Source of the DNA: Catajapyx aquilonaris
Taxonomy: Eukaryota
Assembly: GCA_000934665.2 (NCBI GenBank)
Contig: KZ538778.1
Span: forward strand, 1 to 48,074
Reading direction: 5' to 3'
Length of the DNA: 48,074 nt
Part shown: in pieces, positions 17,301-20,300 of the stretch
How positions within the stretch are numbered: the stretch's first letter is position 1
How the letters are laid out: each line of letters starts with the position of its first letter
Notes under the pieces: model-generated
What the model saw: the letters and a program-made list of their open reading frames with translations, nothing else
Told to the model about the DNA's origin: nothing
The model's database searches: none
Made by a program: the position numbers and the translations under genes

Positions 17301-20300
17301 CTAACACGACCATTTTCTCACACAGAGGCGAGAGTGGCGCTGGAAAAACCGAAAACACCAAGAAGGTCATTCAGTATTTTGCACAAGTTGCTCCATCCGG
17401 AATCAAACAAAGGTTCACTGCTGGTGTAAGTGCCGAGATTAGACCATAATCTAACATAGGTGCTAAAAACGCAGGTTCGCGTGACAGGTTAGGTCAGGAC
17501 CACGATCAGGACCATAAATTTGCATCTCCCTACCCTCCATCCCACCGTGGCGGTGTTACGCCGCGTAGGAAACAATTATGTGGATACAAATCGGTCAAGA
17601 TTGCTCTTTTTAATACAGAGGTGAGTCCGGAGCCGGAAAGACTGAGAATACGAAGAAAGTAATTGCCTACTTTGCCAATGTCGGTGCGTCCACCAAAAAG
17701 AAGGAAGAGGAACCCGGGGCGACCAAGAAGGTATAACTTTTGAACGTGACATCCCCCCGTCCCCTTAAAAATGACCCTGTATTTTGAAATTGATTCATCA
17801 TTGGACATCGACCTTCCTGAACGACGGAATGTCACCCCCCTGTTTTTCTCCCCCACCCCCTCCCGAGTTGCTGCCATGGACATGTGCTCCTCTAGTCGAG
17901 ACTCAGAAGTGAGGCATGGAACATCGGCTCCACCTATTTTTTGACCCCTCTTTTGTACAGTAATTTGAAAGCCACTCCTAGAAACAGACGGAGGACGTGG
18001 TTGTGACCGGTTCGTTTTAACCGTATACAATTTATAAACCGCCATTTTTTATTAGTACGACTCTAACATTGCTCTAGATGTAGATATAAACATGCACGTC
18101 ATACTTACAAAAATTAGCGTAGTCAGACTAATATACAAATTGCTTTATTTATTTGATGTGGTCGGCCTGCGACAACGGCCACTTTTCCGATCTATCCTAC
18201 TCACATGTCAGATCAAATCAGCATGCTTTCCTAAACTTTGACCACGTCACGATCGTTTTGACTCCCAATTTTAGGGTAACCTGGAAGATCAGGTCGTCCA
18301 GACCAACCCTGTACTTGAGGCCTTCGGTAACGCCAAGACTGTGCGAAATGACAACTCTTCCCGTTTCGTGAGTATCATCTTGGAAAATAATTTCTTGCTC
18401 TTTACGAAATCTAAAATTCGGACCGTTTCAGGGTAAGTTCATCCGAATCCATTTTGGTCCCACTGGAAAGCTGGCTGGTGCCGATATCGAAACCTGTAAG
18501 TTGAAACTCTCCTATACATGAACTTATAGGAAAGCGAGGAATGCAATAACTGATGATGACTCTTTCCTCAGACCTGCTGGAGAAGGCCCGTGTGATCTCT
18601 CAACAGTCTCTGGAACGATCCTACCATGTTTTCTACCAGCTCATGTCTGGAGCTCTCCCCGATCTGAAGAGTGAGTATGACACGAAACCCACTGAAGGGA
18701 AGGGAGGGCAGGGAAAGAGCAATAATATAGGGTGAAACATTGCTGTTTTTAAACATACTGTCATATTGCCTGCGTCAAGTTTTTCCAAGTCGTCAGCTAA
18801 AGGGGAACCAAGAAGATACTGCGGGGATTAGGTGGGGTTTTCCACTTTTTCAGCCCCCCCTCCCCAGTCCCTATGTTTACCATGAATATAGGTAGAGTAG
18901 CCATGTGGGGATTTTTTTTTTCAACGTGGATATGGGGTATTCCGGATTCCTTTTGTGTCTGGCAACTCTACTTCAAAACCCCAGAAAACCCATGCAGTCT
19001 TTTCCTGGAGGGCCTTTATTATACAAAACGAGACAAATCAAGTAGAACATGCGAGCCCAGGAGTGTATGATTCTTGATGCAGGAAAATGATGAATACTTA
19101 TAATCCACTCCAAACAAAACGCGCAACTTGCTTGTATCAGACTGCTTGTATCACTTTCTGTGCGAGTTTCACATACTCCTGGACAGTATGCTGCAGAAAT
19201 GACGAAAACAGCAATGTCTTAATAAAAAGTTACTTGGCAGAAATTTCGACGTGAACGTCGCAGTATCCCTGCCCCCAAATTTCCATTAACAATATCTTCC
19301 TTTGCTCGATCAGAACTGTGTTACCTGCAGGACGACATCTACTATTACCACTTCGTATCTCAGGGCAAAACAACAATCCCAAGTATGGATGACGGGGAGG
19401 AAATGTTGGCTACGGATGTAAGTCCCATAGTGTCAGTGACCTGAGGTGATCGTAAGCCCTCACCCCATTTCTCCCCAATACCCTCCCAGTAAAGCCTGAT
19501 AGTGTCGGACATTCGAAAGAGAGCCTGATCACCATGATGCAGATATGCAGGGAGTAAAGCATGCCAACCCCCTGACCCCAGCCCAGCAAGAAATAATTAC
19601 ACAGTAGCAAGTTTTAAAATATTATTGTAAGCATGGACTTTTAGTACCGGTTTTATATTCAAAAAAGTCCTTCAGAAAGGACCCACTGGATTCCCTCCCC
19701 CACTTGGCATGGGAATATTGTTAGAACTCCTAGCATAAAAAGGTCACACTCAACCCTAGGTTGACCTTAGCCCCCATTTTTAATTCCCCCAACCACCTTG
19801 CAAGAATGTACTGTACAACCATCCCTGTGTTATATAGTAGTTAAATCATTACTTTATTCCAGCATCCGCATGTTAGCAACGACAACCGTACACCCATACC
19901 ATTTAGAGATATATTTTTAGAGAGTCACGCATCCCCTCCTCCCCCGCTCTCCCTGACATGCACGATCCCAACATTTTGAACCGTTCTTTTTTTTGCTCCT
20001 TTTTCACAACCTACAGAATTGCTCTATTTGACTGATAATGTCTCGGAGTATCACTTCGTGGCGCAAGGGAAGACCTCAATCCCAGGTGTTGATGATGGGG
20101 AAGAAATGCTTATTACGGATGTAAGTTGGAGAGATATGGTCGACCCTAGCGCTGTCGAGACGTCACAGAGAGTGTCCTTTTGTTGACGTATGCAATGTGT
20201 ACCGTCACTAAAGGAGTTGATGGCGTTGGTGTTGTTGTGTCGCATGCAAAGTTTGATTTATATCCTGGAATAGTTCCACAGGATGAAATCCCTCGAAGAT

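What the first reader, a model, noticed from the sequence alone, without database searches (positions are those of the whole stretch)
17326..17730. Mutually exclusive exons swap the P-loop and loop 1
Seen: two tandem exons both start [15 protein letters not shown] but differ in loop 1. Variant a ([14 protein letters not shown]) is 4 aa shorter and has no acidic residues; variant b ([18 protein letters not shown]) is highly charged. Known: loop 1 tunes ADP release, and Drosophila Mhc has no MXE here; from memory, similar clusters exist in Daphnia and molluscs. Inference: this is a fast/slow kinetic switch, possibly coupled to the catchin-like isoform.
Basis: partly seen in the sequence, partly recalled or inferred. 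Interest (0 to 1): 0.7.

Follow-up and report, generated by a model that had tools for sequence, protein, structure and literature searches.

The report
Ancient swappable myosin loop-1 exon pair
This arthropod muscle myosin gene carries a real but long-known pair of interchangeable exons next to the ATP pocket; the rarer one is an ancient form shared with ticks, barnacles, crabs and water fleas and probably makes a slower motor, and the same gene also seems to keep an exon resembling the clam catch-muscle protein catchin.

Summary
This is Mhc "cluster-2" of Kollmar & Hatje 2014, known from scallops, snails, Ixodes, Daphnia and Palaeoptera and lost in Neoptera. The window is probably a non-insect hexapod, which fits that scheme. 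Added here: exon a belongs to one ancient type (loop ending F-[STA]-x-G) found in 4 ticks, a barnacle, 6 decapods and Daphnia; a and b types split at 99/98 support. Slow a / fast b is inferred from scallops, not shown. No transcript of this species was examined. Catchin cannot share a transcript with this exon, but ORF 32143-32547 sits at the catchin junction and resembles molluscan catchin ends (11 of 22 columns; 1 of 20,000 shuffles). The scan has noted other Mhc clusters on other DNA, not this one.

The parts
14103..36060 (+). [quoted passage not shown]
   Evidence: tblastn of Tribolium Mhc P0014 covers residues 2-1931 in order; one search finds no second muscle-type P-loop exon
16624..16651 (+). 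Constitutive 28-nt exon before the cluster (phase 1 in, phase 2 out)
17326..17425 (+). Cluster-2 exon a (5' member): P-loop, following helix, short loop 1 ending F-T-A-G; ancient a-type
   Evidence: 68% identical over the last 19 residues to tick a-type, groups with a types
17426..17618 (+). 193-nt intron between the two exons; too long for simple steric exclusion; no unusual RNA structure
   Evidence: fold z = -0.84, 34 of 200 shuffles as stable
17619..17730 (+). Cluster-2 exon b (3' member): P-loop, helix, lysine/glutamate-rich loop 1; the type kept by neopteran insects
18275..18367 (+). Constitutive exon after the cluster (end of loop 1 to switch 1); single copy, no cluster-3 pair seen
32143..32547 (+). 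Candidate catchin-like alternative first exon: ATG, 135 codons, proline-rich, donor GAA|GTAATG in frame with the rod exon at 32739
   Evidence: junction position equals that of molluscan catchin; no database homologue
32739..32795 (+). Rod exon at which molluscan catchin joins the myosin tail

Best explanation
The two exons are Mhc cluster-2, a tandem duplication older than the split of chelicerates and pancrustaceans. Each mRNA takes one exon; double inclusion or double skipping shifts the frame and would be removed by nonsense-mediated decay (frame shown; decay inferred). Exon b gives the common, flexible, charged loop 1 and is probably the major form. Exon a gives a minor isoform whose loop 1 ends in a conserved phenylalanine-small-small-glycine element and carries Q/M instead of A in the helix before it. 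Most likely that element packs against the nucleotide-binding cleft, restrains loop 1 and slows ADP release, giving a slower, more economical motor for tonic or visceral muscle, as the 5' cluster-2 exon does in scallop catch muscle. Shown: exon anatomy, frame logic, selection on both copies, two ancient types. Inferred: inclusion in this species, minor status, tissue, kinetic direction and the packing mechanism.
For: Anatomy and frame; synonymous saturation with unchanged protein. a-type loops in annotated full-length isoforms, joined to the same downstream exon, in 3 ticks plus a partial Rhipicephalus model, Amphibalanus and 6 decapods; both types among the 15 listed members of one cluster: barnacle 8 a/7 b, lobster 14/1, Cherax 9/6. 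Daphnia 6a (5') ends F-S-S-G and 6b is b-type; a precedes b in the Rhipicephalus model P0121. Of 82 distinct loops in 357 stored proteins, 11 end in the motif, and 0 of 29 b-type loops have an aromatic residue there. Tree of 33 loops: 17 a versus 16 b split at 99/98; window a + window b as one clade rejected, p-AU 0.002. Scallop 2a = catch, 2b = striated; loop 1 affects ADP release. Scallop chain 2os8 has A-A-N-L-Y-K-Q in register with tick A-A-S-G-Y-K-Q, while chains labelled striated have a lysine run like b. 0 of 43 long-ORF metagenome loci with the loop carry the a type, as expected for a minor form.
Against: No reads or contigs of this species were laid on the locus, so inclusion is unshown here; relatives' isoforms are automatic annotations whose read support I did not see. 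The rule 'longer loop = faster ADP release' would make decapod a the faster form (a is 3-7 residues longer). The tree has only 23 columns and long branches, and a types were found by searching with a-like queries. The scallop match is 4-5 residues judged by eye, the scallop loop does not show the F-x-x-G end, and '2os8 = catch' is recalled (title does not say so). Many of the 43 loci may come from species without cluster-2. In lobster and Cherax lists a is the more frequent type, though annotation counts are not expression. The gene has a single, fast-type-like hinge exon, so the scallop slow set 2a+3b+11b is not kept whole. Codon usage of both exons is not clearly above intron background.
Confidence: 0.58

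Rival explanations
1. One reading: a fast/slow switch set by loop length and charge (short, acid-free a versus long, charged b).
For: True of the window and of ticks (19 versus 23 residues, a without acidic residues); loop length is linked to ADP release in print.
Against: Net charge +2 in both; sign of the length difference changes across arthropods and decapod a loops hold 1-3 acidic residues, while the C-terminal motif stays fixed.
Confidence: 0.17
2. Exon a is functional and ancient but tunes something other than shortening speed, for example stability of the folded-back off state, load sensitivity, or a developmental-stage isoform.
For: A fixed aromatic motif in a loop described as hypervariable suggests a specific contact; decapod a loops are long yet keep the motif. 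In mammalian beta-myosin, loop 1 variation did not track speed.
Against: The only measured cluster-2 pair (scallop) differs in ADP release and motility (cited through). No data here point to another function.
Confidence: 0.2
3. Exon a is a dead relic in this species and only b is used.
For: No transcript of this species examined; 0 of 43 long-ORF metagenome loci carry the a type; neopterans live without it.
Against: Open frame, consensus donor, three branch-point-like motifs, synonymous-only change in the shared part and 68% loop identity to ticks.
Confidence: 0.05

Closest known systems
Mhc MXE cluster-2 (Kollmar & Hatje 2014, PMC3912159); Daphnia pulex Mhc1 exon 6a/6b (Odronitz & Kollmar 2008, PMC2257972)
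   Same: Same exon (P-loop, helix, loop 1), two members, identical P-loop, a-type 5' and b-type 3'; Daphnia 6a shares the F-S-S-G end.
   Different: A lineage not among the cluster-2 carriers named in the text I read (probably a non-insect hexapod); the members differ by 4 residues, equal in Daphnia. The parts I read do not remark on the conservation of the a type across arthropods.
Scallop (Placopecten, Argopecten) catch versus striated Mhc isoforms, exon combinations 2a,3b,11b and 2b,3a,11a
   Same: Alternative exon at the same place; b resembles chains labelled striated; a shares a short hydrophobic-K-Q register with chain 2os8.
   Different: No cluster-3 or cluster-11 pair in the window; F-x-x-G end not seen in the scallop stretch shown; kinetics measured only in scallops (primary papers not read).
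Catchin / myorod of molluscs (alternative first exon joined to the C-terminal ~830 residues of the rod)
   Same: ORF 32143-32547 joins the rod at the same residue and phase, is of similar size and proline-rich, and matches 11 of 22 conserved columns of six molluscan catchin exon ends.
   Different: Described as specific to molluscan catch muscle; no transcript, promoter or second arthropod example found here.
Vertebrate smooth muscle myosin loop-1 splice (SM-A/SM-B; names recalled)
   Same: Alternative splicing changes loop 1 and ADP release.
   Different: A small insert exon in a different myosin II class (recalled), not a duplicated P-loop exon.

Membership tests
Mhc MXE cluster-2 | Neighbouring exons in a muscle Mhc gene coding P-loop, following helix and loop 1 | tested here: met
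   definition
Mhc MXE cluster-2 | Same reading frame and splice-site pattern, similar length and sequence | tested here: met
   100 and 112 nt, both AG/GT, same phases
Mhc MXE cluster-2 | Orthology with described members (Daphnia 6a/6b, tick) | tested here: met
   (short alignment; mollusc orthology only suggestive)
Mhc MXE cluster-2 | Mutually exclusive inclusion in transcripts of this species | not tested
   No reads or contigs were laid on the locus; only frame logic and relatives' annotated isoforms
Scallop-type catch/striated kinetic switch | 5' exon in slow muscle, 3' exon in fast muscle | not testable with these tools
   No tissue data; known for scallops
Scallop-type catch/striated kinetic switch | Different ADP release and motility of the two heads | not testable with these tools
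   Needs protein; structure models were below pLDDT 50 in this region
Scallop-type catch/striated kinetic switch | Partner clusters 3 and 11 switch with it | tested here: not met
   Single exon at both places; hinge exon flanked by introns of about 60-70 nt
Catchin / myorod | Unique ATG-bearing first exon spliced in frame to the rod at the A-R-I-E-E-L exon | tested here: met
   In genomic sequence only
Catchin / myorod | Sequence likeness of the unique exon's C-terminal end | tested here: met
   11 of 22 columns with one gap; 1 of 20,000 shuffles in each of two shuffle tests; 2 of 95,952 six-frame window positions score as high. Resemblance was seen by eye before the test; upstream catchin blocks not tested
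Catchin / myorod | Expressed as a headless transcript and protein on thick filaments of catch-type muscle | not tested
   No transcript data; 0 of 323 stored proteins with the junction show a catchin-like lead-in, but those searches favoured full-length myosins

The most novel reading that the evidence does not exclude
The gene keeps two parts of the molluscan catch-muscle programme, the slow loop-1 exon 2a and a true catchin first exon, so a wingless hexapod would build a catch-like, tension-holding muscle type inherited from the protostome ancestor, with catchin and 2a myosin co-expressed in the same fibres. The conserved F-x-x-G end of arthropod 2a would be an undescribed built-in brake on nucleotide release.
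Probability: 0.2. Interest if true: 0.72.

Novelty: new member of a known kind. Interest (0 to 1): 0.38.

Why it matters
The cluster itself is known and expected in a non-neopteran arthropod. Two additions have value. First, exon a is one conserved type across ticks, barnacles, decapods, water fleas and this hexapod, fixed by a motif rather than by length or charge; that gives a natural single-exon pair for testing how loop 1 controls ADP release, and it was lost in neopteran insects, so Drosophila work could not have seen it. Second, a catchin-like exon outside molluscs would move the origin of catchin back to the protostome ancestor and make the open question of catchin's role testable in a non-mollusc.

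Tried and rejected
Transcript evidence: four runs were listed (one with 0.69 of the words, three with 0.21 or less), but none was laid, so they give no evidence. AlphaFold2 models of barnacle a and b motor domains: mean pLDDT 61 and 59, loop-1 region under 50 in both; uninformative, as is the fold comparison built on one. Docking/selector RNA pairing: best intron-intron duplexes -26.3, -28.0, -28.0 kcal/mol, reached by 0, 1 and 1 of 12 shuffles, margins under 1 kcal/mol and helices broken by long bulges; intron fold z = -0.84; not convincing, not excluded. Steric exclusion rejected: 193-nt intron. Codon-usage test: exons a and b (-0.22, -0.26) and the catchin-like ORF (-0.39) lie at or below the 95th percentile of intron background; inconclusive. 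Catchin-like ORF: one weak low-complexity hit among 1.84 billion representatives, no Pfam family, no usable Atlas hit; absence shows nothing. Six unnamed genomic loci with an intron at the catchin junction held no catchin-like ORF, and the three loci reaching the P-loop exon had no cluster-2 pair, so co-occurrence could not be tested. Co-usage with the hinge cluster in annotated isoforms showed no fixed pairing and such annotations cannot phase distant exons. Neopteran origin of the window, which would have contradicted the published loss, was considered and judged unlikely: the only odorant-receptor-family match is a gustatory receptor, though that search scored just 15 candidates exon by exon. 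In one search one truncated protein (P0359) was left out of the identity ranges.

Full report
Observation. The window holds a muscle myosin heavy chain gene on the + strand; a Tribolium Mhc maps across it from residue 2 to 1931. After a 28-nt exon ending at 16651 come exon a (17326-17425, 100 nt) and exon b (17619-17730, 112 nt), both AG/GT, 193 nt apart, then the exon starting at 18275. Of those 15 codons 11 differ while all 15 residues are kept; third positions agree at 4 of 15, first and second at 28 of 30. Either exon alone keeps the frame open; both together stop at the start of b, and neither stops 178 nt downstream. The loops have 2 basic/0 acidic and 5 basic/3 acidic residues, net +2 each. 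The own genome gave three matches to exon b: the two exons and one non-muscle-like myosin exon.

What is known. Kollmar & Hatje 2014 (PMC3912159; I read parts 1-4 of 7 of the text, supplement S3 whole, S2 part 1 of 3, the species table part 1 of 2; the alignment file could not be read and may already show the conservation described below) call this exon pair cluster-2. They list it in scallops, oyster, Aplysia, Biomphalaria, Lottia, Ixodes, Daphnia and Palaeoptera, place its origin in the protostome ancestor and its loss in Neoptera; scallop catch muscle uses 2a and striated muscle 2b, and longer loops are linked to faster ADP release. Odronitz & Kollmar 2008 (PMC2257972; passages and supplement S2 part 1 of 4; its alignment file not readable) describe Daphnia exon 6a/6b as equal in length and similar in charge and print both. 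PMC8191873 (passages) confirms the scallop and smooth-muscle precedent and calls loop 1 hypervariable. The primary scallop kinetics papers were not read.

Which animal. Eleven tail exons are 85-87% identical to nine named neopteran insects, 73-82% to six crustaceans and 77% to three ticks (no named branchiopod or basal hexapod was in the set). The genome gave one odorant-binding-protein match and, for the odorant receptor family, one match that Pfam places with gustatory receptors. Odorant-binding proteins are reported only in hexapods (PMC5850775, abstract) and odorant receptors in all insects but not earlier hexapods (PMC6080948, abstract). A non-insect hexapod is therefore likely, not proven; cluster-2 is expected there.

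Exon a is an ancient type. A search with exon a ranked tick myosins first (79-82% over 33 residues). A search with the tick region added a barnacle and decapods, and cluster listings showed both loop types in one species: barnacle 8 a/7 b, lobster 14/1, Cherax 9/6 of 15 listed members each. Of 458 stored proteins 357 have a spliced loop, giving 82 distinct loops; 11 end in F-[STA]-[SAGC]-G and all 11 have Q or M where b types have A; none of 29 b-type loops has an aromatic residue at that place. Ten of 11 named a loops score higher against window a than window b (Panulirus is the exception, 29 versus 30) and 15 of 15 b loops the reverse. A tree of 33 loops splits 17 a from 16 b at 99/98 and rejects window a + b as one clade (p-AU 0.002), on only 23 columns and with long branches. 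Daphnia 6a, the 5' exon, ends F-S-S-G, and a precedes b in a Rhipicephalus model. All neopteran loops fetched are b-type. Length is not the constant: a minus b is -4 here and in the tick, 0 in Daphnia, +1 in the barnacle, +3 in lobster, +7 in Cherax and Scylla. Scallop chain 2os8 shows A-A-N-L-Y-K-Q in register with tick A-A-S-G-Y-K-Q, and chains labelled striated show a lysine run like b; that 2os8 is the catch form is my recall. Five literature searches found no paper beyond the two above on arthropod cluster-2; the library lacks most subscription journals.

How it probably works. Shown: two selected, in-frame alternatives with a frame penalty on errors. Inferred: tissue-specific choice, with b as the common form (0 of 43 long-ORF metagenome loci with the loop carry a, 27 are b-like; many may be from species without the cluster) and a as a slower, tonic or visceral form whose fixed phenylalanine end restrains loop 1 and slows ADP release. 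Against: the length rule would make decapod a faster; the gene lacks cluster-3 and cluster-11 pairs that switch with 2a in scallops; structure models were unusable at the loop. No convincing RNA pairing was found, so the choice most likely rests on splicing factors and the unequal sites (a: consensus donor and three branch-point-like motifs; b: weaker donor). No transcript of this species was examined, so inclusion of a here is open.

The catchin link. Catchin is a headless product (PMC12040844 and PMC5963113, passages), so it cannot share an mRNA with cluster-2; only co-expression is possible. The window has a 135-codon ATG-led ORF at 32143-32547 whose donor is in frame with the rod exon at 32739, the junction used by six molluscan catchins. 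Its end matches 11 of 22 conserved catchin columns with one gap; 1 of 20,000 shuffles reached that in each of two tests and 2 of 95,952 six-frame window positions do. I noticed the likeness by eye before testing it. Against: no homologue; borderline codon usage; none in six unnamed loci with that intron. Searches showed catchin only in molluscs (PMC4410989 seen as a listing; PMC9324576 has no whole-word mention).

Verdict. Real, and a new member of a known cluster. The conserved a-type motif and the catchin-like exon are the leads worth following. Earlier scan notes concern other Mhc clusters or other genes; none covers this cluster. Interest 0.38.

Noticed in passing
window 32143-32547 (+): Catchin-like alternative first exon at the exact molluscan catchin junction, with significant likeness at its C-terminal end; not found described for arthropods.
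   Followed up: partly
window 33386-33464 (+): Single hinge exon, resembling the 5' (fast-associated) type, with no room for a partner; most protostome Mhc genes have a cluster-11 pair.
   Followed up: partly
window 14810-15166, 19313-21186, 22262-23293, about 24780-25170, 26496-28150 (+): Other MXE clusters: cluster-1 (2 exons), cluster-5 (4), cluster-7 (2), cluster-8 (2), cluster-10 (4); cluster-9 region single.
   Followed up: no
window 20478-20555 (+): The third cluster-5 copy matches only 24 of about 35 residues and then meets an in-frame stop; possibly degenerate or an assembly error.
   Followed up: no
window 29931-30041 (+): Open in-frame extension with methionines ahead of the first post-neck exon, the place of Drosophila myosin rod protein; codon usage is intron-like (-0.64), so unsupported.
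   Followed up: partly
P0251, P0334, P0348, P0433-P0446 (decapods), P0248 (barnacle): Decapods and barnacles have an Mhc gene with many annotated alternative exons, including cluster-2 and, in decapods, two or three hinge variants, whereas PMC3912159 suggested many crustaceans use unspliced gene families.
   Followed up: no
P0122 (unnamed contig): Another tandem pair of P-loop exons whose 5' member lacks the F-x-x-G end, so not all cluster-2 5' exons are of the arthropod a type.
   Followed up: no
window 17546-17570 (+): Small G+C-rich hairpin 50-75 nt upstream of exon b's acceptor, where b lacks a good branch-point motif; the intron as a whole folds no better than shuffles.
   Followed up: partly
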